Positions 17,538 through 64,000 are shown, counted from the stretch's first letter. The stretch: 64,000 bases of DNA from Candidatus Latescibacterota bacterium (GCA_965248265.1 CBDFJF010000001.1:1536001-1600000), one strand, 5' to 3'. Notes: generated by a model not told the origin, from the letters alone. A program made the numbers and translations.

Positions 17538-17565
17538 AGTGGCTATAAAACGGGTTATCGCGAGT
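17538..17565. other. dif/Xer-like 28-bp site (host copy)
   Basis: AGTGGCTATAA-AACGGG-TTATCGCGAGT; right arm differs by 1 nt from the phage site arm TTATCGGGAGT. Confidence 0.55.
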
Positions 17566-20110: not shown

Positions 20111-20640
20111 TTTCTTCGGGCCCTCTCCGTTGTCGACATAGACACCGTCCAGCAAGAGAACATGCCAGTGCGGGTTGAGATTCAACGCCGAGCCAAATCG
20201 CTGCACGAAGGTCACTGAGCCGCAGCGACCGTCGGCGAACCCCTGTCTTTGTGCTTGGCGTCGGTACCAACCATAAACGACGCGGAGGAAGACGGCTAGC
20301 AAATCGCTGACGAGCACACCGTCCCAGGCCAGGCGATAGCGGATCTCGTAAGGCAGGCTCAGGACCCACTGACGCACCGGCACTTTCGGCAGGACCTCGT
20401 CAGTCAGGCGGGCGGCCGTATCGGCCATGCGCCGTCCCATACAACTGGGACAAAATGAGCGGCGCTGGCACGAGAACGCGACCACGCGATCCTTGCCGCA
20501 GTCCTCACACCGTACGCGCAGAAATCCGTTTGCGAGAATTCCACACTCAAGGTAACCGCGGAGCTCCTTCTCGACATGCACCGGCAGCTGTCGATCGGAT
20601 GAGCGCGTGCGCTCGATGAAGGTCTCCCCCCACGTGCTCG
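20110..20640 (-). mobile_element. IS91-family (HUH) transposase fragment
   Basis: CGILANGF..CEDC..VAFSCQRRSFCPSC zinc domain, RQWVLSLP, NPHWH HUH motif; the catalytic Tyr half is missing. Confidence 0.88.
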
Positions 20641-22424: not shown

Positions 22425-23903
22425 TTACAGGCCTGAGGGGTAGGGGCTATAGTCGACGATGATCTCGATCTCCTCCAGTTGAACGCTGCCGTACAGCCCC
22501 TCCGGTCGACTCTCCAGGTCAACCCGCAGGATGTTGTCCCCTTTGTGCGGCAGGATGGCCCGCAGGTGAAAATCCAGCCAGTGATTCCTGGCTCCGGAAT
22601 GATTGAAGGTATCGGGCTCACTCTTGCGCACCCGGTGCATGGTTTCCCCCGCCAGTGACTGCCCGTTCAACACCACGCTGAAGCGATCAGCCGAGACGTG
22701 ATTGCTGAAGAACAGGCGCAGTCGCACCTCCGTGGCGCGGTTGTCCGGGCCACCCAGATTGTCGGCGATGTAGAACTCGATTTCCACTCCACCGCTTCCC
22801 GCTTCCTCCGACTTGAACTCATGCGGAATGACATGGTCGTAGCCGATGGCGGCGGCGTCCGCTGAACGCCGGGCAAACACGTAATGCTTCCTGGCCTCCT
22901 TCGTCAGCTCAGCATCCCCCCACTCGGTCAGGATCGAGCGCTCCTCGATACCCAGCGGCCAGTGGAACATGTAGCTGTAGAGGCCGTCGACTCCCCAGTC
23001 CCAGTAGTTGGCGGCCGCGGCGCGAAAGTGTTCGGCCCCGGCGTACTCCTTGATGGCGGCACCGGTGACATCGCTGCGCACGTAGTGCTGCAGGAAGCCG
23101 TAGACGGATGCATCCGCTTCGTGTGCCGGCTCCACCACCCAGCGGAAGGGCATGTTCGGATCAAGATCGGTGTAGGCGTATTGAACCGGCACGACGAAAT
23201 CCAGCAACCCCTCGGCAAGCCACGCCCGCACGTCCAGGCCTTGAGCCAGATTCGCCCCCTCCGACGGGTAAATGCGAGCCCCGAAAACCCGTGATCCGTC
23301 GCCGCTCGATCGCACCAGCGCAGAAGCCTGCCGCACCCAATCGGTCATGATCGCGGTGCCGTCGGCAACTTCGTCCCGGGGGAAATAGAACGACCCGCTG
23401 GCATCGAAGGCCGCGGTGTAATCGAGCTCGAAGCCATCGATGGCGTAGTCGGTGATCAGTTCGTCAACTATAGCTATCTGATGGTCTCGTACTTCTTGGT
23501 GGCCCCAACCGCGACCACCCTTGTCGAGCTTGTGATCCTCCTGCATCCCGCCGTAGGTCGACAATCGCAGGTCGGCGAAAAAGTCCATTCCCCTGGCGTG
23601 GGCGCGATCGATGACGACCCCGAGAGGATCGAGCCCGGCATCCAGCAGGCTTTGCATGCACTCCCAGGCTCGCCACACGATCTGGCTCTTGAACGGCCGC
23701 ATATCACTGCCGAAACGCACCCCGACCTCCGTCGGCCAGAACGCCCCGTCACCCCGCTCGACACAGTAACTCAGCGTGTCGACGGCCGTTCCCGCGACCT
23801 CGTCCACGGGCACCCAGGCATCCTCCATCCTCATCGGTGGCTCGAACATCCACAGGTAGTTGTGGCGCGCGTCGTTGTGGTAGATGGTCCGTTTCTGTCT
23901 CAT
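22425..23903 (-). CDS. GHL10-like TIM-barrel protein
   Basis: IYHNDA, DPLGVVIDRAHARGM, YAIDGFELD, LDVRAWLAEGLLD, GVDGLY pattern. Confidence 0.6.
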   Translation of the reverse strand: MRQKRTIYHNDARHNYLWMFEPPMRMEDAWVPVDEVAGTAVDTLSYCVERGDGAFWPTEVGVRFGSDMRPFKSQIVWRAWECMQSLLDAGLDPLGVVIDRAHARGMDFFADLRLSTYGGMQEDHKLDKGGRGWGHQEVRDHQIAIVDELITDYAIDGFELDYTAAFDASGSFYFPRDEVADGTAIMTDWVRQASALVRSSGDGSRVFGARIYPSEGANLAQGLDVRAWLAEGLLDFVVPVQYAYTDLDPNMPFRWVVEPAHEADASVYGFLQHYVRSDVTGAAIKEYAGAEHFRAAAANYWDWGVDGLYSYMFHWPLGIEERSILTEWGDAELTKEARKHYVFARRSADAAAIGYDHVIPHEFKSEEAGSGGVEIEFYIADNLGGPDNRATEVRLRLFFSNHVSADRFSVVLNGQSLAGETMHRVRKSEPDTFNHSGARNHWLDFHLRAILPHKGDNILRVDLESRPEGLYGSVQLEEIEIIVDYSPYPSGL

Positions 23904-48225: not shown

Positions 48226-48300
48226 TGGTAGCAGGGACGGGATTCGAACCCGCGACCTTCTGGTTATGAGCCAGACGAGATACCGTTTCTCTACCCTGCA
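48226..48300 (-). tRNA. tRNA-Met(CAT), initiator-like
   Basis: TGCAGGG TA GAGA AACGGTA TCTC G TCTGG CTCATAA CCAGA AGGTC GCGGG TTCGAAT CCCGT CCCTGCT ACCA; 1:72 mismatch and A11:U24. Confidence 0.93.
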
Positions 48301-56380: not shown

Positions 56381-56922
56381 CTGCGCTACTGCAACTACCG
56401 ATCACCGAGGAACAGGAAGACGAGCTGTACTCCGAAGCTTTCGGAGACGCACTTTTTCACGGCGAAGGCGACGAGCTGCCGGAGCTGCCAACGTTCGAAG
56501 ATGAGGAGCAGGCGCAGCGATACCTGCGAGCCTACGCGCACTACCGGGAACAGTTCGACCAGGTGTCCGCACTCTTCGACGCCGAGATCGAGCGGATTGC
56601 AGCCCGACAGCAGAAGGAGCTGTCGAAGATCGAATGCCGGGTGGACTTCCTCTCGGCCTCGCTCAAGCGCTTCTACGAGGCGTCAGGAGCCAAGAGGGTT
56701 GTGCTGCCCCACGGCACTCTCTCCCAGCGCAAGCAGCCAGAGCGAGTCGTCATCGAGGACGAGACGACGTTCCTGGAGACGGCGCCGGCTGAGCTGATAA
56801 AGACGATGGCCGCCCCCGACAAAACGGCAATCAAGGAGCACATCAAAACCACCGGAGAGATTCCAACCGGTGTCGACCTGGTGCGCAACGATCCCAAGTT
56901 CACAATCACGCTGGCCGAATGA
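56377..56922 (+). CDS. Gam/Gp157-like host-nuclease inhibitor
   Basis: LPHGTLSQRK, PDKTAIKEHIK.TGEIP.GV. Confidence 0.75.
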   Translation: MTALLQLPITEEQEDELYSEAFGDALFHGEGDELPELPTFEDEEQAQRYLRAYAHYREQFDQVSALFDAEIERIAARQQKELSKIECRVDFLSASLKRFYEASGAKRVVLPHGTLSQRKQPERVVIEDETTFLETAPAELIKTMAAPDKTAIKEHIKTTGEIPTGVDLVRNDPKFTITLAE

Positions 56923-57203
56923 GAAGAGCAACCCGCAGAGAGAAGATCCGGATGTCGAAGATCGTTGACGACGGCTGCATCGTGTGTCGACGTGAGTTCG
57001 AGATCTACACCCCGGCGGGTGTGCACCATTGCACCCGTAGGCAGAAGCGGTCCCATGCGCGCACCATCGCGCTCTGCGACCGGCACCATCAGCACGGCGG
57101 AGAAGGCGTGGCGATTCACCCGTACTGGAAGCTGTTCGAAGAGAAGTTTGGGACAGAGGAGGAGTTGCTCGAGGCGACGAACCAGATGGTGGACTCACTA
57201 TAA
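56919..57203 (+). CDS. Ref-like/DUF968 HNH-type nuclease
   Basis: GCIVC..HH...IALCDRHH...IH...FEEKFGTEEELL. Confidence 0.8.
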   Translation: MRRATRREKIRMSKIVDDGCIVCRREFEIYTPAGVHHCTRRQKRSHARTIALCDRHHQHGGEGVAIHPYWKLFEEKFGTEEELLEATNQMVDSL

Positions 57204-57220
57204 GAACCATTAAAACGCAT
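57193..57220. other. dif-like 28-bp site
   Basis: ACTCACTATAA-GAACCA-TTAAAACGCAT; contains the stop of the Ref-like gene. Confidence 0.5.
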
Positions 57221-57248
57221 TTACGCTGACGTAAACGAAGGAGGAGAA

Positions 57249-58175
57249 ATGGTACGAGAGTGCAAGACCCAAGAAGAACTCAGCGCGGCAATCGCGGAAA
57301 AGAAAAAGCACCCCGATATCGAAATCTGGCTTGTGGGCAATGCCCGATTTGAACTGGGCGGCTCCTCCCAGGTGAGAGCCTACGGCTCCTCCCAGGTGAC
57401 AGCCTACGGCTCCTCCCAGGTGACAGCCTACGACTCCTCCCAGGTGACAGCCTACGGCTCCTCCCAGGTGACAGCCTACGGCTCCTCCCAGGTGACAGCC
57501 TGCGGCTCCTCCCAGGTGACAGCCTGCGGCTCCTCCCAGGTGACAGCCTACGGCTCCTCCCAGGTGACAGCCTACGGCTCCTCCCAGGTGACAGCCTACG
57601 ACTCCTCCCAGGTGACAGCCTACGGCTCCTCCCAGGTGACAGCCTACGGCTCCTCCCAGGTGACAGCCTACGACTCCTCCCAGGTGACAGCCACTGATTG
57701 GGTCGGCGTCACCGTGCACCCCGGAGCCAAGGTCGAAGGCGGGAAGCAGATCGAGATACCGCGGCTGGATACACCGGCTCTATGGTGTGAGTTTTACGGG
57801 ATTCCTGTCGATGACGGGGTTGCAGTGATGTACAAAGCCGTCAACGACGATTTCGACAGCCCCTACGGGATGTCATACAAGCCTGGAACCGTCCCTGTGG
57901 CTCCGGATTGGGACGAAGGCAAAGCGGAATGTGGTGGCGGTATTCATGTGTCGCCGCGGCCCTTCATGGCGCTCGCATTCCACGGTGAGGCTACAAAGTT
58001 CGTCGGCTGCCCTGTGAAGCTGGAAGAGGTGGCGGTTCATCCCGATGGGCATTACCCGGAAAAGGTGAAAGCCAAGGGATGCTGCGCACCGGTGTTTGAA
58101 GTAGACATCGACGGGGAGCCGTTGCTGGGCATTCCCGATAACGGCAAAGCGTTGACTCACTACAACGCCGGTTAA
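57249..58175 (+). CDS. octapeptide-repeat (GSSQVTAY) beta-helix-like protein
   Basis: 14 repeats plus a C-terminal YKAV...ECGGGIH...KVKAK domain; SD AAGGAGG. Confidence 0.8.
   Translation: MVRECKTQEELSAAIAEKKKHPDIEIWLVGNARFELGGSSQVRAYGSSQVTAYGSSQVTAYDSSQVTAYGSSQVTAYGSSQVTACGSSQVTACGSSQVTAYGSSQVTAYGSSQVTAYDSSQVTAYGSSQVTAYGSSQVTAYDSSQVTATDWVGVTVHPGAKVEGGKQIEIPRLDTPALWCEFYGIPVDDGVAVMYKAVNDDFDSPYGMSYKPGTVPVAPDWDEGKAECGGGIHVSPRPFMALAFHGEATKFVGCPVKLEEVAVHPDGHYPEKVKAKGCCAPVFEVDIDGEPLLGIPDNGKALTHYNAG
57360..57695 (+). repeat. 14 x 24-bp coding tandem repeat
   Basis: Unit GGCTCCTCCCAGGTGACAGCCTAC, contiguous with no spacers. Confidence 0.97.
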
Positions 58176-58182
58176 AATGAAT
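58155..58182. other. dif-like 28-bp site
   Basis: (GTTG)ACTCACTACAA-CGCCGG-TTAAAATGAAT. Confidence 0.55.
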
Positions 58183-58472
58183 CAGCCGTGTGTTCCGCCA
58201 AGAAGCCCGTACAACCAGACTAAGACTCCTAATGCGAGCATGGCTGCCGGCCAGAGCAGGTTCGATCTCTCGCTTGCGAGCTCTCGGAATGTGGCATTCG
58301 TAAAGAAGAGGAAGCCGCTTATCGCGATCACAAATCCAGGGATGACGAAAAGAGACATGGCCCAGATGCTAAGGAGCAGCTCTCCAATCCCAACTGGCTC
58401 GTATCTCAAGAAATGACCTACACCGAGTACGAGAAGGACCGAGGCGATGCATGCAATCGCTGCAAGTTTCAT
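58182..58472 (-). CDS. three-TM membrane protein (inverted moron)
   Basis: Hydrophobic; opposite strand; bracketed by two dif-like sites. Confidence 0.65.
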   Translation of the reverse strand: MKLAAIACIASVLLVLGVGHFLRYEPVGIGELLLSIWAMSLFVIPGFVIAISGFLFFTNATFRELASERSNLLWPAAMLALGVLVWLYGLLGGTHG

Positions 58473-58521
58473 GGATTACCTTAGCGCAGAGCTTAGATCG
58501 ATTGTGGATTGGACACCATAG

Positions 58522-58549
58522 ACCAACGATAATGCCATTTAAAGGGAGT
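58522..58549. other. dif-like 28-bp site
   Basis: ACCAACGATAA-TGCCAT-TTAAAGGGAGT(CAACGGATG). Confidence 0.6.
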
Positions 58550-58555
58550 CAACGG

Positions 58556-58813
58556 ATGTACCTCGAAAGCACGGAAATCAGCGGAGAATTGTCGGTTGAG
58601 GAGTACCGCAACCAGATGGTGACAGCGCTTGAGCGTGATGTGCGGAGCATTGCCTACGCCATCACGGAAATACGCGACCTGTTCAAGTGCCCCGAATGCG
58701 ACGGCGCCGGAGGAGCGCGTATCACAGAAGAGCCGTCTGAGGACAACGACTTCGAGGGCTGGAGGTTCAAGGGTTGCGCCCGCTGTGACCGCAAGGGGAT
58801 TGTCCGCCCATGA
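58556..58813 (+). CDS. DnaJ-type zinc-finger small protein
   Basis: CPECDGAG...CARCDRKG. Confidence 0.6.
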   Translation: MYLESTEISGELSVEEYRNQMVTALERDVRSIAYAITEIRDLFKCPECDGAGGARITEEPSEDNDFEGWRFKGCARCDRKGIVRP

Positions 58814-59277
58814 ACCGACAGAATGTGACCTGTGGCCCGCTTTACCGGCGTGTCCGCGAACTCTTCACCGGTGACGCCCCCGAACTCAATCGCGCCTTCG
58901 CGCAGGGATTCACGGCCGGCGAGGCTGAGAAAGTCTATCTCGGCGCCTGCAAGGCTGCCATGTTCCGCCCGACATCGTCGATTGGCCGCGAGCTGCTACG
59001 CTCCTGGGTATCAGACATTTGCGGCGTGTACGGGCTTTGCTGGACCACACTGGAGTATGTGGACCCGAGTCGTGATGGCGAGGCGGTATACGAGTTGTGG
59101 ATCTGTCGGGACAACGATGCCGTCGATGCCGTCGAGTCAACAACCGCCATCGAAGTCAACAGTCTCTCCTGGCATCACTGGCGGGGGCTGCTGACAGGTG
59201 TGGCTGATGGCGAAATCGACCTCCACTTCCACGAGCGCCAGAGCGCTGGAGACATCGACGGAACATTGGCGGACTAA
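58810..59277 (+). CDS. phage hypothetical protein
   Basis: ATGA overlap; stop lies inside a dif-like site. Confidence 0.6.
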   Translation: MNRQNVTCGPLYRRVRELFTGDAPELNRAFAQGFTAGEAEKVYLGACKAAMFRPTSSIGRELLRSWVSDICGVYGLCWTTLEYVDPSRDGEAVYELWICRDNDAVDAVESTTAIEVNSLSWHHWRGLLTGVADGEIDLHFHERQSAGDIDGTLAD

Positions 59278-59300
59278 CGATAAGAAACCTACTGAGGAGT
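59273..59300. other. dif-like 28-bp site
   Basis: ACTAACGATAA-GAAACC-TACTGAGGAGT(CAACGGATG). Confidence 0.55.
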
Positions 59301-59306
59301 CAACGG

Positions 59307-59693
59307 ATGGGCGACGAATGGGAGAGAGCGAAGCCAACCGGGTGCCCTTTTCTGCGGTATCTCGACGCATACCCGATAGGCAACTGGGTTTCAAGGGGTG
59401 AGCCTCCATGCAGACAGAAGATTTGCGGGAAGGATAGTTGCTACCAGTACGGGCGCTCCTACAGAGACCGAGAGCGACTTCTGGTTCTCCCAGTTGGGAC
59501 GCTGATGTTCAAGCTCTCTCCAGAGCTGGGTGACGGACAAAGCAGCTCGATTGTGAAGAACATCGATCACGCCATCGAGGCGGTACGTGCGTGGATGGAG
59601 GACAGGAAGCACGGCGATGACATCGGCGAAGAATGCCAAATCGAGTGCGTGGAGATGACGGAAGCCGAGATTGCGGCTCTGCCTGAGCTATGA
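59307..59693 (+). CDS. phage hypothetical protein
   Basis: C-terminal [13 protein letters not shown]. Confidence 0.55.
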
Positions 59694-59971
59694 GAATCCG
59701 CCCGCTCTTTGCCTGGTACGACATCTGGATCGGAGCGTTCTGGGACAGGTCCAACCAGCGGCTCTACCTGTTCCCGTTGCCCATGATTGGGCTGAGGATT
59801 GATTTCAGAGGGGAGTCAACGATCATGGAGGACAACTGGGAAACGACGTGCCCAAACCGCGATGACGGTCAGCACTGCAACTGCTGGTATGATGGCGAGC
59901 CGTGCTGTGCCTGTGGCGATGACTGCGAAGAAGACAGGCAAGACGAAAATTGCTTTGCGGACGCACGATAA
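59690..59971 (+). CDS. hypothetical protein, probable fusion of two small genes
   Basis: FAWYDIWIG half plus a Cys-rich half with its own SD and ATG at 59825. Confidence 0.5.
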
Positions 59972-59988
59972 TTCCGATTACTGGGAGT
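59961..59988. other. dif-like 28-bp site
   Basis: ACGCACGATAA-TTCCGA-TTACTGGGAGT(CAA). Confidence 0.65.
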
Positions 59989-60005
59989 CAATCGAACGAG
60001 AGGAC

Positions 60006-60212
60006 ATGAAATCTTGCTACCTCCATTTCAGGGGGACGGCACAGCCCCCACTTGAGATCAGCGCGACGGACGCTGCCACGATCATCAGATGCAACTATGC
60101 CTCGGTGGAAGCCGTTGAGCTGATGGAGGAGCGGCTTCGCGAAGGCAAGCGAGTGTATGTCGAGAGCGGGCACATCCGCCTGCATAGCTTCACACTCATT
60201 CACAGCAATTGA
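60006..60212 (+). CDS. hypothetical protein, paralogue of 63168-63356
   Basis: YLHFRG..QP....ATDAA.IIR.N.AS......MEERL..GKRVYV. Confidence 0.7.
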   Translation: MKSCYLHFRGTAQPPLEISATDAATIIRCNYASVEAVELMEERLREGKRVYVESGHIRLHSFTLIHSN

Positions 60213-60221
60213 GGAGATCCT

Positions 60222-60419
60222 ATGAGCGGGAATAGCAAGGAGCGGCGCAGGCTCAATCGCCTGACGAACGGGCTTCTTCCGAGACTCAATGAGTTGGAGG
60301 AGGAGGTGGAGTATCTACGGGAGGACACAGCGTATCTCGAAAGGGGTATTCACCAGTTCTCAGCTGGGGGTTGGTCTGTATTTTGGCGATGGCTCTGGAG
60401 TGGCTTCTCCTGGAAGTGA
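60222..60419 (+). CDS. phage hypothetical protein
   Basis: SD GAGGAG; coiled coil. Confidence 0.6.
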   Translation: MSGNSKERRRLNRLTNGLLPRLNELEEEVEYLREDTAYLERGIHQFSAGGWSVFWRWLWSGFSWK

Positions 60420-61201
60420 GCTGCGCGAGTTGTGGCGATCGAGGTTTCGTGTATGTCCAGGCTGATGAGCGAGTGGGACAAGGCCACGGCCAATTGGAGA
60501 TCTGCCGGTGTGTTCGTCCTTTGTGCCGTTGCGGAGACCAGTCTCCCTACCTCTACTGGGATGAGGAGTCCGTGCGCCGCGACTGCCCCTGTAGAGCGCC
60601 TCGGCACCGGATACAGGTAGTGAACCACCTGGTCAAGATCTCGGGAGTGCCCGACCGCTATCGCTGGAAGTTCCGCACGGACTTCCTCGACGCCGAGCAG
60701 CCAGGACTGGCCGGCAAGATCCGGGCCTCGATCGCGAAGCTTGTGGACTCCCAGGAGCCGCCGAAGCAGGGCCTGTTCCTGCATGGCACACCAGGCACCG
60801 GCAAGACGCTGTTGGCCAGCATCGTGCTCAATGAGCTGATGTACTGGAGGATGAAGCGGGGTCGGTTCGTGAACCTGGCTCGATCGCTGTTTCCTCGACT
60901 TCGGCAGACAATGTCAGAGGGGTCTCAGGAGAGCGGGAAGCTCTTCCAGATCCAGGAGCGGTTGGCCACAGTCCCCTACCTGGTGATCGACGATCTGGGG
61001 GTGCAGCGCGGGACCGAGTGGGAGGAGGAGATCCTGTACGACCTGGTCGATGCGCGGTATGCGGAGCAGCAATTCACGGTAGTTACGACGAACACGCCTC
61101 TCGATGAGATCGAAGGGATCTCGCGAGGGCGGATCTACTCACGGCTCAAGGAGATGTGCCGATGGTTGAAATTGGAAGGGACGGACTGGAGATGCGAATA
61201 G
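60416..61201 (+). CDS. DnaC/IstB-like AAA+ ATPase (helicase loader)
   Basis: GTPGTGKT, LVIDDLG, VTTN, RIYSRL; N-terminal Cys cluster. Confidence 0.88.
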   Translation: MSCASCGDRGFVYVQADERVGQGHGQLEICRCVRPLCRCGDQSPYLYWDEESVRRDCPCRAPRHRIQVVNHLVKISGVPDRYRWKFRTDFLDAEQPGLAGKIRASIAKLVDSQEPPKQGLFLHGTPGTGKTLLASIVLNELMYWRMKRGRFVNLARSLFPRLRQTMSEGSQESGKLFQIQERLATVPYLVIDDLGVQRGTEWEEEILYDLVDARYAEQQFTVVTTNTPLDEIEGISRGRIYSRLKEMCRWLKLEGTDWRCE

Positions 61202-61434
61202 CAGAACCGTCCGATCGGGGCCGTGTGGTAGCGGTCGTAATCCCCCGCTACCTCGAAGCATGGGCACTTTTGAATCCGTTGTCGAGCATGAAGACATGGA
61301 CGATAACATGCGGTAGGTGTTCCCACTCTTGGCGAGAAAAAGTCCCGCTTGTCAGGGTCTGTTCGGCTGTGTGCCCGTGCTGCAGGACGCAGAACCGATG
61401 GGAACTTATCCTTGAGGAAGACTCGGAGGCTTGA
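61192..61434 (+). CDS. zinc-ribbon protein
   Basis: CGRCSH...CPCC. Confidence 0.55.
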   Translation: MRIAEPSDRGRVVAVVIPRYLEAWALLNPLSSMKTWTITCGRCSHSWREKVPLVRVCSAVCPCCRTQNRWELILEEDSEA

Positions 61435-62266
61435 TCTCTTGCTGAGTGAGTCCTTCGAAGTACTCTGCACTGTTATCAGACTCGTCTACTATCATCACGT
61501 TCACCTCGGCCCTATCTGGCGAGACGATCAGGTAAGCCTGTCCGTGAGTTACTGGATCTGCCGCCCCGGTCTGTTTGGTACAGACACACTCCTGAGCGCG
61601 CCTCTTATTGCTGAGTGGGGCCAGGATGCGGTAGCAAACTGCTGGCGTCGGCCATGTGGGGAAAAGATTCCAAGCTGCAAATTCATCCGCGTGCAGATTC
61701 GCAGACAGACTCGCCCAAGTCCCAAAAGGTTCGGGGTGATTAGTGTCGCTGTCCAAGAAACCATCCACATATTTCATGAAAAAACGGTGTCTGCGCGCGG
61801 CTTCAGCATCAACTTTCTCGCTAAGCTCCTTCTGGGATCTCCGCTTTGCGCGAAGGTCTACCATCGTTCCCGCGACATTTTCATGGACGTCTTCTGCGCG
61901 CCTGGCTTTGTCCAACCACCCCTGTGCTTGGTCAAGAAGATCTGCACTGATGAGTGTCTTCGCCAGGTTAGACATTGCCAGCGTATTTCCAGCGTTGGCC
62001 GCCTTTTCGTAGTGCCCTATGGCGAGAGATTCCAGTCCGATCTTGTCGCAGCAGACACCCAAATTATTGATCGCCAGGTCGTAGTCGGGCCGAAAACTCA
62101 AACATTTCGTGTAGTGAAGCCGGCTGACCTCCGATTGGCCCGCGCGATAATAGGCAAAGGCTGAGGCAAAGCGAATGTCTACATCGTTCGGTGTAATCTC
62201 TAGGATCTTCTCAAGAATAAGCGCCAGAGCGCCGGAGATCTGGACGGTAACCTTGAAACCGTTGAG
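61406..62266 (-). pseudogene. TPR/Sel1-like protein, 5'-truncated
   Basis: AINNLGVC, AMSNLA; the TPR-like frame continues 55 codons upstream of the first canonical start codon (62101) to an in-frame TGA at 62267-62269. Confidence 0.6.
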
Positions 62267-62292
62267 TCACTGTAATGCCTCAAAACGATAGT
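62265..62292. other. dif-like 28-bp site (degenerate)
   Basis: (GTTG)AGTCACTGTAA-TGCCTC-AAAACGATAGT(CAA). Confidence 0.5.
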
Positions 62293-62307
62293 CAAAAGGT
62301 GCCAACC

Positions 62308-62550
62308 ATGGATAAAAAAAAGATGCCGTATCAGGCCCTCGTCTTTCCTGAGTTTGGGGACGGAGAATTTGCAATCCAAACAGGGCGGCGACTCGGGATG
62401 GTCAAATCGGATTACACCGACGACTGGTATATCTCATGGTCGCCTCGCAATTCAAATAACAACGCCGAGGGGGTGTGGTCAGAGTGGGTTGAGTTGGCGA
62501 ATGCAATCATTGCTGAGGATGAACGCCGCAAGGCGGATACTACCAAATAA
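62308..62550 (+). CDS. hypothetical protein (single-gene cassette)
   Basis: Between two dif-like sites that share the spacer TGCCTC. Confidence 0.6.
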   Translation: MDKKKMPYQALVFPEFGDGEFAIQTGRRLGMVKSDYTDDWYISWSPRNSNNNAEGVWSEWVELANAIIAEDERRKADTTK

Positions 62551-62567
62551 TGCCTCTTATCGGGAGT
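62540..62567. other. dif-like 28-bp site
   Basis: CTACCAAATAA-TGCCTC-TTATCGGGAGT. Confidence 0.6.
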
Positions 62568-62572
62568 AAGAA

Positions 62573-62725
62573 ATGTATTTCAGTTTAGAGTTTATTCAGT
62601 GCGACGGCTGCGGAGAAAGAGTAGAGGAAATGGGGGAATTGAAGTTCGGAGAAGTGCCGGATGATTGGCTCAAGGTAAGCGAACGAGAACATCACTGCCC
62701 CGAGTGTAAAACAGAGACTGACTAA
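62573..62725 (+). CDS. 50-aa zinc-finger protein
   Basis: MYFSLEFIQCDGCG...HHCPECKTETD; between two dif-like sites. Confidence 0.65.
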   Translation: MYFSLEFIQCDGCGERVEEMGELKFGEVPDDWLKVSEREHHCPECKTETD

Positions 62726-62748
62726 CGATAATCCTCGTACTACGGAGT
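62721..62748. other. dif-like 28-bp site
   Basis: ACTAACGATAA-TCCTCG-TACTACGGAGT. Confidence 0.55.
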
Positions 62749-62754
62749 AGATGA

Positions 62755-63171
62755 ATGAGTGAACTGCCCTACGCTGAGGACGTGAACTACTGGAAGACAG
62801 GATCGTCGTCCCCGGACTCATGGATCGCGAAGGCGATAAAGCAGATCGAGGACGTGGGCGGCGAGATCACGGCAGAGGGCTTTGGTCGCGCGGCTGGACA
62901 CTCGGCCTACATGCTGGGCTTTGTGTTCGACCAGGAGGCGTTCAAGATCACCTGGCCTGTACTGGAGTCGCACAAGGGCGAGGAAATGGCCGCGCGCCGG
63001 CAGGCGGCGACGTTTCTCTATCACGACGTGAAGGCACGGTGCATGGTGGTGAAGATCAAAACGCCGAGGGTGGCGTTTTTCGAGTACCTGCAGCTGCCAG
63101 ACGGCCGGTCCGCTGGGCAGCTGGCAAACCCCGAGCTGTTGGCCAATGTGCCGAAGATGCTGACAACATGA
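62755..63171 (+). CDS. phage hypothetical protein
   Basis: 138 aa; coupled to the next gene. Confidence 0.7.
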   Translation: MSELPYAEDVNYWKTGSSSPDSWIAKAIKQIEDVGGEITAEGFGRAAGHSAYMLGFVFDQEAFKITWPVLESHKGEEMAARRQAATFLYHDVKARCMVVKIKTPRVAFFEYLQLPDGRSAGQLANPELLANVPKMLTT

Positions 63172-63356
63172 ACTACATCCTCCACTTCAAGGGGCCACCG
63201 CAGCCGGCAGAGCAGGTCAACGCCACTGACGCGGCCAAGATCATCCGCAGCAACTTCGCCTCCAGGGAGGAGATCAAGGTGATGGAGGAGCGACTACAGG
63301 CAGGAAAACGAGTCTACGTCCGCAACGGGTATTTGCGGCGTGGGGATCTGAACTGA
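63168..63356 (+). CDS. hypothetical protein, paralogue of 60006-60212
   Basis: MNYILHFKGPPQP...ATDAAKIIRSNFAS...MEERLQAGKRVYV. Confidence 0.7.
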   Translation: MNYILHFKGPPQPAEQVNATDAAKIIRSNFASREEIKVMEERLQAGKRVYVRNGYLRRGDLN

Positions 63357-63368
63357 AAGGAGGAGCAC

Positions 63369-63539
63369 ATGCCCAAGTATCACACCACAAAGCAAGTTGC
63401 CGACATGCTCGAGGTGACCGATCGGTACGTTCGGAAGATGGTGATCGAGAAGAAGCTGACTGCGTTCAGGCTCGGCCACCGGGTGCGCATACCTACCGAA
63501 GCAGTTGAGAAATTCATGCGAGAGCGCAAGATCGCATGA
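63369..63539 (+). CDS. xis: excisionase (HTH_17-like)
   Basis: TTKQVADMLEV...LTAFRLGHRVRIPTEAVEKFM; SD AGGAGG; ATGA overlap with int. Confidence 0.85.
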   Translation: MPKYHTTKQVADMLEVTDRYVRKMVIEKKLTAFRLGHRVRIPTEAVEKFMRERKIA

Positions 63540-64000
63540 AAGGGAGCATAACCCGGCGCCAACTCAAGGGCGGCCTGCAGTACTACATCGTCTACGACGC
63601 TGGCCGGAAGTGGTCGTCGAAAAAGCAGAAAACCGTTCGTAATCAGCAATGGGAGCGTGTCGAGCCAAACACTCGGACGGCTGCACAGAAGCTGCTCAAC
63701 ATCCGCCTGGCGGAAGTCCAACGGGGCGAATGGCAGGGTAAGCAGAGCATCGGTTTCACCGAGCTCACCCAGTCATGGATGGAGAAGGACGCACGGCCGC
63801 GACTCAAGCCACAATCGCTGGACCGCTACCAACAATTCCTCCGGCTGCACATCCTGCCCGTCCTCGGCCAGTACCAGGCGCACGAGATTGACCTTGAGAT
63901 TCTACAGGGGTTTACTGCGGTGTTGCTACAGGAGCTCTCGGTGTCTCACGTCAAATCAATCGTGGCTGTCACGAGAGCCATCCTGCGCAAGGGGTACGAA
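63536..64000 (+). CDS. int: tyrosine integrase, N-terminal part (runs off the window)
   Basis: MKGSITRR...arm-binding region, LKPQSLDRY..LRLHILPVLG SAM-like domain. Confidence 0.85.
   Translation, partial: MKGSITRRQLKGGLQYYIVYDAGRKWSSKKQKTVRNQQWERVEPNTRTAAQKLLNIRLAEVQRGEWQGKQSIGFTELTQSWMEKDARPRLKPQSLDRYQQFLRLHILPVLGQYQAHEIDLEILQGFTAVLLQELSVSHVKSIVAVTRAILRKGYE

What the first reader, a model, noticed from the sequence alone, without database searches (positions are those of the whole stretch)
57193..62748. Array of Xer/dif-like 28-bp sites dividing the prophage accessory arm into gene cassettes
Seen: eight 11-6-11 quasi-palindromic sites, all at gene junctions. They are 57193 ACTCACTATAA-GAACCA-TTAAAACGCAT; 58155 ACTCACTACAA-CGCCGG-TTAAAATGAAT; 58522 ACCAACGATAA-TGCCAT-TTAAAGGGAGT; 59273 ACTAACGATAA-GAAACC-TACTGAGGAGT; 59961 ACGCACGATAA-TTCCGA-TTACTGGGAGT; 62265 AGTCACTGTAA-TGCCTC-AAAACGATAGT; 62540 CTACCAAATAA-TGCCTC-TTATCGGGAGT; 62721 ACTAACGATAA-TCCTCG-TACTACGGAGT, plus a half-site ATTCCCGATAA at 58131. 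Outer flanks GTTG/CAAC recur. I saw none in the structural operon. Known: TAA-N6-TTA with 11-bp arms is the architecture of XerC/D dif and plasmid pdif sites, which delimit mobile dif modules. Inference: this phage uses Xer-type recombination to acquire or shuffle 1-2-gene cassettes, an integron-like system without a dedicated integrase. I do not know of this being described inside a tailed prophage.
Basis: partly seen in the sequence, partly recalled or inferred. Interest (0 to 1): 0.88.

Follow-up and report, generated by a model that had tools for sequence, protein, structure and literature searches.

The report
Host-dif mimic sites bounding prophage cassettes
A tailed prophage in an uncultured Latescibacterota genome carries, at its gene junctions, short sites that copy the host chromosome's own dimer-resolution (dif) site, and swapped gene blocks begin and end at them, which suggests that a host Xer recombinase shuffles phage genes.

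Summary
Seven of the eight are significantly dif-like.

Scanning the genome with the left arm turned up a perfect palindrome, ACTAACGATAA-caagaa-TTATCGTTAGT. It lies at the cumulative GC-skew maximum, the replication terminus, next to a 345-aa Xer-like recombinase gene. This gene-plus-site pairing recurs in 49 of 54 related Latescibacterota loci, so the palindrome is very probably the host dif.

A matrix built only from the dif sites of 16 relatives scores seven window sites at 8 bits or more. None of 147 ordinary stop+SD junctions reaches that score.

Homology between co-resident elements breaks inside the sites. One 367-bp single-gene cassette (J2 to J3) occurs in three genomic contexts. Sites with unrelated flanks share identical 6-bp spacers: 10 pairs against about 1 expected.

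Best reading (about 0.55): these are dif-mimicking Xer-type recombination sites that bound exchangeable cassettes. Recombination itself is inferred, not shown. The right arms are weak, and several mosaic breakpoints lie outside any site. The same arm also ends ISCR/IS91-like elements, which I cannot explain.

Classification: new variant of a known kind (pdif modules, IMEX).

The parts
57193..57220 (+). J1: ACTCACTATAA-gaacca-TTAAAACGCAT. The TAA in the left arm is the stop of the Ref-like nuclease gene.
   Evidence: Left arm matches dif 9/11, right arm 4/11. dif matrix 3.0 bits (not significant). Resembles J2 (left 10/11, right 9/11).
58131..58141 (+). Orphan left-arm half-site ATTCCCGATAA, inside the 3' end of the 308-aa gene.
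   Evidence: Identical to the left arm that precedes the same spacer and right arm at C1:28225.
58155..58182 (+). J2: ACTCACTACAA-cgccgg-TTAAAATGAAT. Left border of the 4,062-bp exact duplicate and of the 367-bp cassette.
   Evidence: Three genomic contexts share the spacer, right arm and downstream DNA but differ in left arm and upstream DNA. A fourth left context appears in contigs. dif matrix 9.7 bits.
58522..58549 (+). J3: ACCAACGATAA-tgccat-TTAAAGGGAGT. The right arm supplies the SD of the 85-aa gene (ATG at 58556).
   Evidence: dif matrix 21.8 bits. Homology with C1:676187 runs through the left arm and spacer and is lost in the right arm and beyond.
59273..59300 (+). J4: ACTAACGATAA-gaaacc-TACTGAGGAGT, between the 155-aa and 128-aa genes.
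   Evidence: Left arm 11/11 to host dif. 14.5 bits. A contig variant diverges after 59289, the spacer/right-arm border.
59961..59988 (+). J5: ACGCACGATAA-ttccga-TTACTGGGAGT. Member of the ttccga spacer class.
   Evidence: 10.4 bits. The same spacer occurs in 3 other independent sites with unrelated flanks.
62265..62292 (+). J6: AGTCACTGTAA-tgcctc-AAAACGATAGT (weak member).
   Evidence: 11.4 bits on the dif matrix, 4.6 on the phage-site matrix. Its spacer equals J7's and fits the family dif spacer consensus T-N-C-C-Y-S.
62540..62567 (+). J7: CTACCAAATAA-tgcctc-TTATCGGGAGT (weak left arm, good right arm).
   Evidence: Right arm 9/11 to dif; 8.5 bits.
62721..62748 (+). J8: ACTAACGATAA-tcctcg-TACTACGGAGT, between the 50-aa and 138-aa genes.
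   Evidence: Left arm 11/11 to dif; 18.2 bits.
57249..58175 (+). Cassette J1-J2: 308-aa protein with about 14 tandem 24-bp repeats and a weak DUF7666 match.
58182..58472 (-). Cassette J2-J3: 96-aa predicted membrane protein on the opposite strand. The cassette is found in three contexts.
   Evidence: At least 98.5% identical at C1:28.2 kb and C1:675.8 kb.
58556..59277 (+). Cassette J3-J4: two overlapping small genes (85 and 155 aa), no family match.
59307..59971 (+). Cassette J4-J5: 128-aa and 93-aa ORFs. The second holds an internal orphan GGAGTCAACG motif at 59812.
60006..62101 (.). Cassette J5-J6: 68-aa and 65-aa genes, a DnaC/IstB-like ATPase (60389-61201), and a 5'-truncated TPR gene on the minus strand (61406-62101).
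   Evidence: The TPR gene is full length (545 aa) at the duplicate locus.
62275..63356 (+). Cassettes J6-J7 (91 aa), J7-J8 (50-aa zinc-ribbon-like) and J8 onward (138 aa and 62 aa).
63369..64000 (+). Excisionase (HTH_17) and tyrosine integrase. The integrase runs off the window.
23886..23903 (+). attL core, an 18-bp direct repeat of window-equivalent 64813-64830. Not dif-like.

Best explanation
The sites are mimics of the host chromosome's dif site. Each has a near-consensus left arm, a 6-bp central region and a degenerate right arm, all in one orientation at gene junctions in the early/accessory arm of a tailed prophage. I propose that a host Xer-type tyrosine recombinase binds them. The most likely enzyme is the 345-aa recombinase encoded beside dif. 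It would exchange strands within the central region between sites that share a spacer. These sites may lie on different phages, prophages or islands, and more rarely in the same array. Everything to one side of the spacer is thereby swapped, which moves or replaces cassettes of 1 to about 5 genes.

The arms do double duty. TAA in the left arm often serves as the upstream stop codon, and GGAG in the right arm often serves as the downstream ribosome-binding site.

Shown here: the sites, their likeness to dif, the identity of dif, breakpoints inside the sites, and spacer classes.

Inferred: binding, catalysis, the enzyme, and the direction of transfer.
For: (1) Host dif. ACTAACGATAA-caagaa-TTATCGTTAGT at C2:3484647-3484674 is a perfect 11-6-11 palindrome in an intergenic gap between mutL and a Xer-like gene. 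It sits in the 5-kb bin where cumulative GC skew peaks.

The gene has an orthologue in 18 of 24 same-family genomes. A dif-like 28-mer with at least 16 of 22 arm matches lies beside it in 16 of those 18 loci and in 49 of 54 MAG loci. Reversed-sequence controls give 0 of 54.

A matrix from 16 relatives, with G000 left out, ranks this site first genome-wide at 42.6 bits; the next is 28.6.

(2) Window sites. Left arms match dif at 7-11 of 11 positions in seven of the eight sites (J7 matches at 4). Seven of eight score at least 8 bits, against 0 of 147 control junctions. Spacers fit the family dif spacer consensus T-N-C-C-Y-S. Arms ending GGGAGT occur in natural dif sites of relatives, L180 and L188.

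(3) Breakpoints. Window 58164-62225 is 100% identical to C1:28234-32295, and identity starts at the J2 left-arm/spacer border. Window 58155-58558 is 98.5% identical to C1:675820-676223 and is bounded by J2 and J3. Sites 677932 and 787566 share only downstream DNA. Contigs from four runs of one sample show a fourth left context at 58164 and a variant that diverges at 59289, the J4 spacer/right-arm border.

(4) Spacer classes. Among 267 site pairs with unrelated flanks, 10 have identical spacers against 0.97 expected. Their variable arm positions are no more alike than in other pairs, 0.61 against 0.57.

(5) No recombinase is shared among the elements that carry arrays. The prophage att core is unrelated to dif.
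Against: No recombination product was observed directly. Only assembled contigs were available, with no excision or circle junction in register with two sites.

Right arms match dif at only 4-9 of 11 positions and usually lack the near-invariant T at position 21.

Seven different spacers among eight sites leave only J6 x J7 able to recombine within this array.

Other mosaic breakpoints are off-site: 62225, 60132, 61022, 59490 and 62251. Homologous or illegitimate recombination therefore also acts here.

Flanks differ from chromosomal dif: G and C next to the arms, against A/T-rich flanks.

The pattern is nearly confined to this genome. It occurs 16 times here, against 2 hits in 60 other same-family genomes. 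Scans of IMG/VR and metagenomes found no second array.

The same arm motif ends ISCR/IS91-like elements. A different enzyme could therefore read it.

Pairs within a spacer class are not independent counts.
Confidence: 0.55

Rival explanations
1. The sites are conserved junction sequences (stop, spacer, ribosome-binding site). They serve as short patches of homology for ordinary homologous recombination between phages, and may bind Xer or another protein without being cut. Mosaic borders fall there simply because these are the only shared letters.
For: Four of eight right arms supply the SD of the next gene, and five left arms supply the stop. Breakpoints can only be placed to within the conserved 28 bp. 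Other breakpoints lie inside genes.
Against: This does not explain why the motif equals the host dif arm, including the family spacer consensus. None of 147 ordinary stop+SD junctions has it. The motif also occurs where no upstream gene ends (J3) and where no downstream gene starts (P676k sites followed by minus-strand genes). It does not explain why spacers form identity classes while the arms vary.
Confidence: 0.2
2. The sites relate to the origin-type ends (oriIS) of the ISCR/IS91-like rolling-circle elements in this genome. A Y2 HUH transposase reads them, and cassettes were laid down by one-ended transposition.
For: Ends of repeated elements carry A[CG]T[AC][AC]CGATAA-N6-TTATCCTCACT. For 5 of 16 Y2_Tnp matches, this lies 475-649 bp downstream of the domain match. 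The IS91 oriIS is known to hold subterminal imperfect palindromes (PMC13181058, passages read). Some of these ends score highly on the dif matrix, up to 27.3 bits.
Against: Phage-type sites lack the IS-specific flanks (TTGAC-N2-3 before the site, AWGCRC after it). Their right arms end in AGT as dif does, not in CACT. No Y2 transposase gene lies in or next to the prophage array; the nearest fragment is at window 20.1 kb, outside the prophage.
Confidence: 0.1
3. The sites are operators for a phage or host DNA-binding regulator, comparable to mycobacteriophage stoperators or start-associated sequences (comparison recalled, not from a call). They would silence or time the accessory genes.
For: One orientation, intergenic position, overlap with translation signals.
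Against: The sites are confined to 5.6 kb next to xis-int and are absent from the rest of the prophage. They also occur in a non-phage island and match dif. The spacer classes are not expected for operators.
Confidence: 0.07
4. The resemblance is chance: ordinary stop plus SD letters that happen to look like dif.
For: TAA and GGAG are common junction letters. A metagenome scan with the core pattern returned 38 single hits, mostly in AT-rich contigs.
Against: Seven hits of at least 8 bits in 5.6 kb, where I expect about 0.03-0.06. Control junctions give 0 of 147. Two left arms match dif at 11 of 11.
Confidence: 0.02

Closest known systems
pdif (dif) modules of Acinetobacter plasmids and chromosomes
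   Same: Several 28-bp dif-like sites bound small accessory gene modules that turn up in different contexts, and the host Xer system is the presumed engine. Sources: PMC6449649 and PMC12907356 (search listings and abstract starts only); PMC7399989 (abstract start).
   Different: Those lie on plasmids or the chromosome of a XerC/XerD host. As I recall (not from a call), their sites alternate in orientation. Here all sites point one way, lie inside a tailed prophage, double as stop and SD signals, and the host appears to use a single-recombinase type of dif.
IMEX: phages and elements that exploit Xer (CTXphi, TLCphi, VGJphi and relatives)
   Same: Phage DNA carries a dif-like site with one good and one degenerate arm, which the host Xer acts on. 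Sources: PMC5357621 (passages) and abstract starts.
   Different: An IMEX integrates the whole element at the chromosomal dif, and the known cases are filamentous or double-jelly-roll phages. This prophage integrates with its own integrase at an unrelated 18-bp core and carries eight internal sites.
Integron cassette arrays
   Same: A row of directly oriented recombination sites at gene junctions, with cassettes of one or a few genes.
   Different: There is no adjacent integron integrase, attI or Pc. The sites are 28-bp dif-like cores, not long folded attC sites. The IntI/XerA-like gene in this genome is 154 kb away and patchily distributed: 13 of 61 genomes.
XerS/difSL and XerH/difH single-recombinase modules
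   Same: The host module resembles them. The recombinase gene lies next to its dif, and the protein (345 aa) is larger than XerC/D. [quoted passage not shown]
   Different: The sequence is distant: below the NCBIfam cut-offs for XerC, XerD, XerA and XerS, and 46 bits to XerD in the PDB. The dif here is a 28-bp 11-6-11 site. A separate XerD-like gene also exists.
PeSL cassettes of T4-type phages and boundary sequences of lambdoid phages (recalled, not from a call)
   Same: Short repeated sequences at gene borders in hyperplastic phage regions, where mosaic joints fall.
   Different: Those are promoter/stem-loop or plain homology patches used by homologous recombination. Here no promoter, terminator or stable RNA fold coincides with the sites, and the motif copies the host dif.

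Membership tests
Xer/dif-type core site | Two 11-bp arms in inverted orientation around a 6-bp central region | tested here: inconclusive
   The 11-6-11 register fits. Arm-to-arm complementarity is only 4-7 of 11, against a background mean of 2.8.
Xer/dif-type core site | Sequence likeness to the host's own chromosomal dif | tested here: met
   Left arms match at 7-11 of 11 in seven of the eight sites (J7 at 4). Seven of eight sites score at least 8 bits on a matrix from 16 relatives' dif sites. Controls give 0 of 147.
Xer/dif-type core site | Bound and recombined by a Xer recombinase, with strand exchange in the central region | not testable with these tools
   Indirect evidence only: breakpoints inside J2, J3 and J4, and spacer identity classes.
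Chromosomal dif (for the site at C2:3484647) | Single best site at the replication terminus | tested here: met
   Top genome hit at 42.6 bits. It lies in the 5-kb bin of maximal cumulative GC skew.
Chromosomal dif (for the site at C2:3484647) | Conserved across related genomes together with a Xer gene | tested here: met
   Present in 49 of 54 loci, against 0 of 54 in reversed controls.
pdif modules | Sites of alternating orientation flanking each module (recalled definition) | tested here: not met
   All eight sites are on the + strand in the same orientation.
IMEX | The element is integrated at the chromosomal dif by Xer | tested here: not met
   The prophage lies on contig C1 and dif on contig C2. 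The prophage is flanked by an 18-bp repeat unrelated to dif, beside its own integrase.
Integron | intI gene with attI next to the array, and attC sites | tested here: not met
   The only recombinase at the array is the phage integrase. The sites are 28-bp cores with no significant fold.
IS91/ISCR oriIS end | Lies a fixed distance downstream of a Y2 transposase gene at the end of a repeated element | tested here: not met
   Met for the IS-type sites (475-649 bp in 5 of 16). Not met for the eight prophage sites, which have no Y2 gene in the prophage.
PeSL-type regulatory cassette border | Promoter plus stem-loop at the repeat | tested here: not met
   One promoter-like hit in 6.7 kb, not at a site (2.4 expected). 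Eight terminator-like hits (5.5 expected), none on the sites' strand at a site. RNA fold z-scores range from -1.7 to +1.2.

The most novel reading that the evidence does not exclude
In this Latescibacterota lineage the host's single Xer recombinase would act as a general cassette-exchange engine. Tailed prophages, a chromosomal island and ISCR-like elements all carry dif mimics sorted into spacer compatibility classes. Genes would then move between phages, IS elements and the chromosome with no element-encoded integrase. That would be an integron-like system built on the chromosome-segregation machinery, and a site-specific route to phage mosaicism.
Probability: 0.3. Interest if true: 0.9.

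Novelty: new variant of a known kind. Interest (0 to 1): 0.75.

Why it matters
Phage genome mosaicism is usually put down to homologous or illegitimate recombination. If this reading holds, a host housekeeping recombinase cuts and pastes phage accessory genes at defined sites. The sites sort into compatibility classes by their 6-bp spacers. This can be tested directly with one cloned enzyme and a few 28-bp sites.

The work also gives the first candidate dif/Xer module for Latescibacterota, a phylum known only from metagenomes. The module has the gene-beside-site layout typical of single-recombinase systems. The same motif also sits at the ends of rolling-circle IS elements. That would link three kinds of mobile DNA to one host site.

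Tried and rejected
Searches for relatives and further arrays:
- blastn of 56900-63600 against 50,697 phage records gave one 69-bp hit, in a DnaC-like gene.
- The DnaC-like and Gam-like proteins have no relatives in IMG/VR.
- The core pattern in IMG/VR gave 119+ stretches; every contig listed had a single match, so these count as chance.
- In metagenome contigs it gave 38 single hits, mostly at 27-47% GC. Only L244 had a second weak hit, and L217 (54% GC, 1.2 kb) might be related. No second array was found.
- In 60 other same-family genomes the phage-type pattern occurs twice. I could therefore not test whether prophage sites co-vary with host dif.

Reads and contigs:
- Only Logan contigs of four runs from one sample were available.
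- No joint linking two sites in register and no back-joined (circle) form was listed.
- The one joint (58183 to 58526, runs X1 and X2, shorter side 20 letters) places J2's right arm directly before the inner part of J3's left arm. I read it as another upstream context of J3, not as J2 x J3 excision.
- I make no use of contig depth as copy number.

Alternative readings tested:
- GGAGTCAAC alone is not enriched in the window: 22 matches against 16.4, and 10 of 100 shuffles do as well.
- I first read the TTGAC...TTATCC form as a promoter for leaderless mRNAs. I dropped this once the copies proved to be ends of repeated ISCR-like elements.
- I first guessed the host was a planctomycete, from its sulfatases. 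Record titles of relatives say Candidatus Latescibacterota.
- The IntI/XerA-like recombinase occurs in 13 of 61 genomes and does not track the arrays. It is neither excluded nor supported as the enzyme.
- Promoter, terminator and RNA-fold scans were negative at the sites.

Not available: the earlier-findings tool was not open.

Full report
OBSERVATION. The eight 28-mers and the half-site at 58131 are in the window exactly as quoted. I call them J1 to J8. Each lies at a gene junction in a run of small, mostly + strand genes. That run ends in an excisionase (63369-63539) and a tyrosine integrase (63536 onward).

The region belongs to a tailed prophage:
- Large terminase and major head protein lie on the minus strand.
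- An 18-bp direct repeat at 23886-23903 and 64813-64830 marks the ends.

The two arms of a site are only weakly complementary: 4-7 of 11, against a background mean of 2.8. What is conserved is the left arm, ACT[AC]ACGATAA, plus TTA and AGT in the right arm. The left-arm 11-mer with up to 2 mismatches gives 13 window matches against 4.3 +/- 1.9 in shuffles. Six of the 13 lie in the array.

THE MOTIF IS THE HOST'S DIF. A genome-wide scan with the left arm (71 hits at up to 1 mismatch) turned up a perfect palindrome, ACTAACGATAA-caagaa-TTATCGTTAGT, at C2:3484647-3484674. Four lines of evidence identify it as dif.
- Position. It lies in an AT-rich gap between mutL and a 345-aa tyrosine recombinase. 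The recombinase has a Phage_integrase domain and a SAM-like N-domain. Its best NCBIfam models are XerC, XerD and XerA, all below cut-off. Its best solved relative is XerD, at 46 bits.
- Replication terminus. Cumulative GC skew on C2 peaks in the 5-kb bin ending at 3,485,000, and the minimum on C1 is at 2.965 Mb. If the two contigs join end to end, the replichores are about 3.70 and 3.62 Mb. This is my arithmetic.
- Conservation. The recombinase has orthologues (60-73% identity) in 18 of 24 same-family genomes and in none of 16 genomes from other families of the class. A dif-like 28-mer with at least 16 of 22 arm matches lies beside the gene in 16 of those 18 loci. The same holds in 49 of 54 loci from MAG records, most of them titled Candidatus Latescibacterota. 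Reversed controls give 0 of 54.
- Site structure. Across 38 distinct sites, positions 1, 10-11, 18-19 and 28 are invariant and positions 8-9 and 20-21 nearly so. Positions 5-7 and 22-24 vary. The spacer consensus is T-N-C-C-Y-S.

A review notes that a recombinase gene lying next to dif, and a protein of about 350 aa, are hallmarks of the single-recombinase XerS and XerH systems (PMC5357621, passages read). An older survey of 16 phyla could not predict dif in Planctomycetes or Cyanobacteria, and its table does not list Latescibacterota (PMC3025954, passages read). The eight papers listed by a search for Latescibacter plus Xer or dif site do not contain the word Latescibacter.

THE WINDOW SITES ARE DIF-LIKE BY AN INDEPENDENT MEASURE. 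I built a matrix from 16 relatives' chromosomal dif sites, spacer included and G000 left out.
- It ranks the palindrome first in G000, at 42.6 bits.
- It scores J3 at 21.8, J8 18.2, J4 14.5, J6 11.4, J5 10.4, J2 9.7, J7 8.5 and J1 3.0 bits.
- The reversed genome gives 84 hits of at least 8 bits in 14.6 million positions.
- None of 147 ordinary same-strand stop+SD junctions in 1 Mb of chromosome reaches 8 bits, and none of the 21 with a TAA stop.

A second matrix, from 13 phage-type sites outside the window with the spacer ignored, gives 67 genome hits of at least 20 bits against 1 in the reversed genome. It scores J1-J5 and J8 at 20-36 bits, and J6 and J7 below 10.

Arms ending GGGAGT, which double as ribosome-binding sites here, occur in the natural dif sites of two relatives, L180 and L188.

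WHERE ELSE THE MOTIF OCCURS.
(a) Arrays like the window's:
- C1:27.4-30.0 kb, in a second prophage-like element.
- C1:675.8-677.9 kb: five sites with small minus-strand genes between them, flanked by ECF-sigma/TPR genes, so not obviously phage.
- C1:786.8-787.6 kb.
- C2:3430.6-3431.5 kb, next to an excisionase-like gene.
- Single sites elsewhere.

(b) The ends of repeated ISCR/IS91-like elements. For 5 of 16 Y2_Tnp matches, the site lies 475-649 bp downstream of the domain match. There it is preceded by TTGAC and followed by AWGCRC.

(c) dif itself.

The phage-type pattern occurs 16 times in G000 and twice in 60 other genomes of the family. The bare half-site pattern is also frequent in a few other genomes: 21, 14 and 10 copies. 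Where I looked, in G008 and G021, those copies are IS-type ends.

BREAKPOINTS AND SPACER CLASSES.
- Window 58164-62225 (4,062 bp) is 100% identical to C1:28234-32295. Identity begins at the left-arm/spacer border of J2, and the two left arms and upstream flanks are unrelated.
- Window 58155-58558 is 98.5% identical to C1:675820-676223. This 367-bp unit carries one membrane-protein gene on the opposite strand and is bounded by J2 and J3. At J3 the shared sequence runs through the left arm and spacer and is lost in the right arm and beyond.
- Sites C1:677932 and C1:787566 share only downstream DNA.
- Contigs from four runs of one sample add a fourth upstream context at 58164, with a left arm ending ...ACCAATGAT. 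That context is not among the genome's three cgccgg sites.
- The same contigs show a variant that leaves the reference after 59289, the spacer/right-arm border of J4.
- Four independent sites share the spacer ttccga, and four share ccctcg, with unrelated flanks on both sides.
- Over 267 pairs with unrelated flanks, 10 have identical spacers against 0.97 expected from column frequencies. The variable arm positions of those pairs are no more alike than in other pairs, 0.61 against 0.57. The pairs are not independent, because they fall into two classes.

A spacer conserved more strongly than the arms, in discrete classes, is what tyrosine-recombinase partners need. It is not what half-site operators or translation signals predict.

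AGAINST THE RECOMBINATION READING.
- Some breakpoints are off-site. The right end of the 4-kb duplicate (62225) lies in a TPR gene that is truncated in the window. Contig variants also break at 60132, 61022, 59490 and 62251.
- The single contig joint (58183 to 58526) is not a J2 x J3 product.
- Right arms match dif at only 4-9 of 11.
- Site flanks are G and C, where chromosomal dif has A/T-rich flanks.
- Seven spacers among eight sites leave only J6 and J7 compatible within this array.
- No recombination event was seen directly.

ALTERNATIVES TESTED.
- No promoter-like or terminator-like hit coincides with a site on its strand. The eight junction RNAs fold no better than shuffles, with z from -1.7 to +1.2.
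- The prophage att core, GGTCCGTTTCTGTCTCAT, is unlike the sites.
- No recombinase is shared by the elements that carry arrays.
- The genome also has a XerD-like gene (268 bits, cut-off 330) and an IntI/XerA-like gene (240 bits, cut-off 265). The latter occurs in 13 of 61 family genomes, at up to 86% identity. Either could take part.
- The IS91 oriIS is known to contain subterminal imperfect palindromes (PMC13181058, passages).
- A tyrosine integrase has been shown to mobilise an ISCR-related unit (PMC9376610, abstract).
- The IS-end likeness may therefore be meaningful, but I cannot explain it.

MECHANISM PROPOSED. A host Xer-type recombinase binds the strong left arm and, cooperatively, the weak right arm. 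It exchanges strands in the 6-bp centre between sites of one spacer class carried by different elements. Everything downstream or upstream of the spacer is swapped.
- Shown: the sites, their likeness to dif, the identity of dif, breakpoints inside sites, and spacer classes.
- Inferred: binding, catalysis, the enzyme, and frequency.

COMPARISON AND NOVELTY. The nearest known systems are Acinetobacter pdif modules and IMEX phages. Searches with 'dif modules/XerC/XerD/prophage' and 'IMEX/Xer/dif/tailed phage' listed no paper on dif-like arrays inside tailed prophages. I saw listings and abstract starts only. Supplementary files, such as the lists of predicted dif sites, were not open to me. I classify the finding as a new variant of a known kind.

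Noticed in passing
G000 C2:3483353-3484674 (outside the window; locus L003:5353-6674): Candidate dif/Xer module of Latescibacterota. A perfect 28-bp palindrome lies at the GC-skew terminus beside a 345-aa Xer-like gene. The pairing is conserved in 49 of 54 related loci. As far as my searches show, it has not been described.
   Followed up: yes
window 17538-17565 (-), Y2_Tnp fragment at window 20123-20221 (-); many loci on C2, e.g. 1134270-1156705: Repeated ISCR/IS91-like elements end in a dif-like 11-6-11 site (A[CG]T[AC][AC]CGATAA-N6-TTATCCTCACT) 475-649 bp downstream of the Y2 transposase domain match. In genomes G008 and G021 the good arm matches one of the host dif arms (ACTATCGATAA), and in G008 two of four copies also carry the host dif spacer. 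Why a rolling-circle IS end should copy dif is unexplained.
   Followed up: partly
window 58164-62225 = G000 C1:28234-32295: A 4,062-bp block of 7-8 genes is 100% identical in two different prophage-like elements of one genome. The TPR gene at its right end is full length (545 aa) at the other locus and truncated to 231 aa in the window.
   Followed up: yes
G000 C1:675820-677960: Five dif-like sites in a row, 370-600 bp apart, with small signal-peptide or lipoprotein-like genes mostly on the opposite strand. They sit between ECF-sigma/TPR fusion genes, so this is a cassette array outside any recognisable prophage.
   Followed up: partly
window 57358-57692: About 14 tandem copies of a 24-bp unit (peptide GSSQVTAY) inside the 308-aa gene between J1 and J2.
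   Followed up: no
window 48226-48300 (-): A tRNA-Met gene inside the prophage, just upstream of the small-terminase-like gene.
   Followed up: no
window 59690-59971, motif at 59812-59821: The 93-aa ORF looks like two small genes fused in frame. An orphan GGAGTCAACG motif followed by ATG sits in its middle, with no left arm before it.
   Followed up: no
window 23886-23903 and window-equivalent 64813-64830: 18-bp att core. The prophage sits at the 5' end of a 492-aa host gene, and the repeat overlaps that gene's start codon.
   Followed up: partly
G000 C1:1754213-1755118 (-): A 301-aa integron-integrase/XerA-like recombinase, 240 bits on TIGR02249 (cut-off 265). It is present in 13 of 61 family genomes at up to 86% identity across genera, so it is probably itself mobile.
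   Followed up: partly
G000 C1:3173914, C2:4818, C2:4137012: The same sequence occurs near the end of C1 and near both ends of C2, so the assembly probably breaks at a repeat. This fits a single circular chromosome.
   Followed up: no
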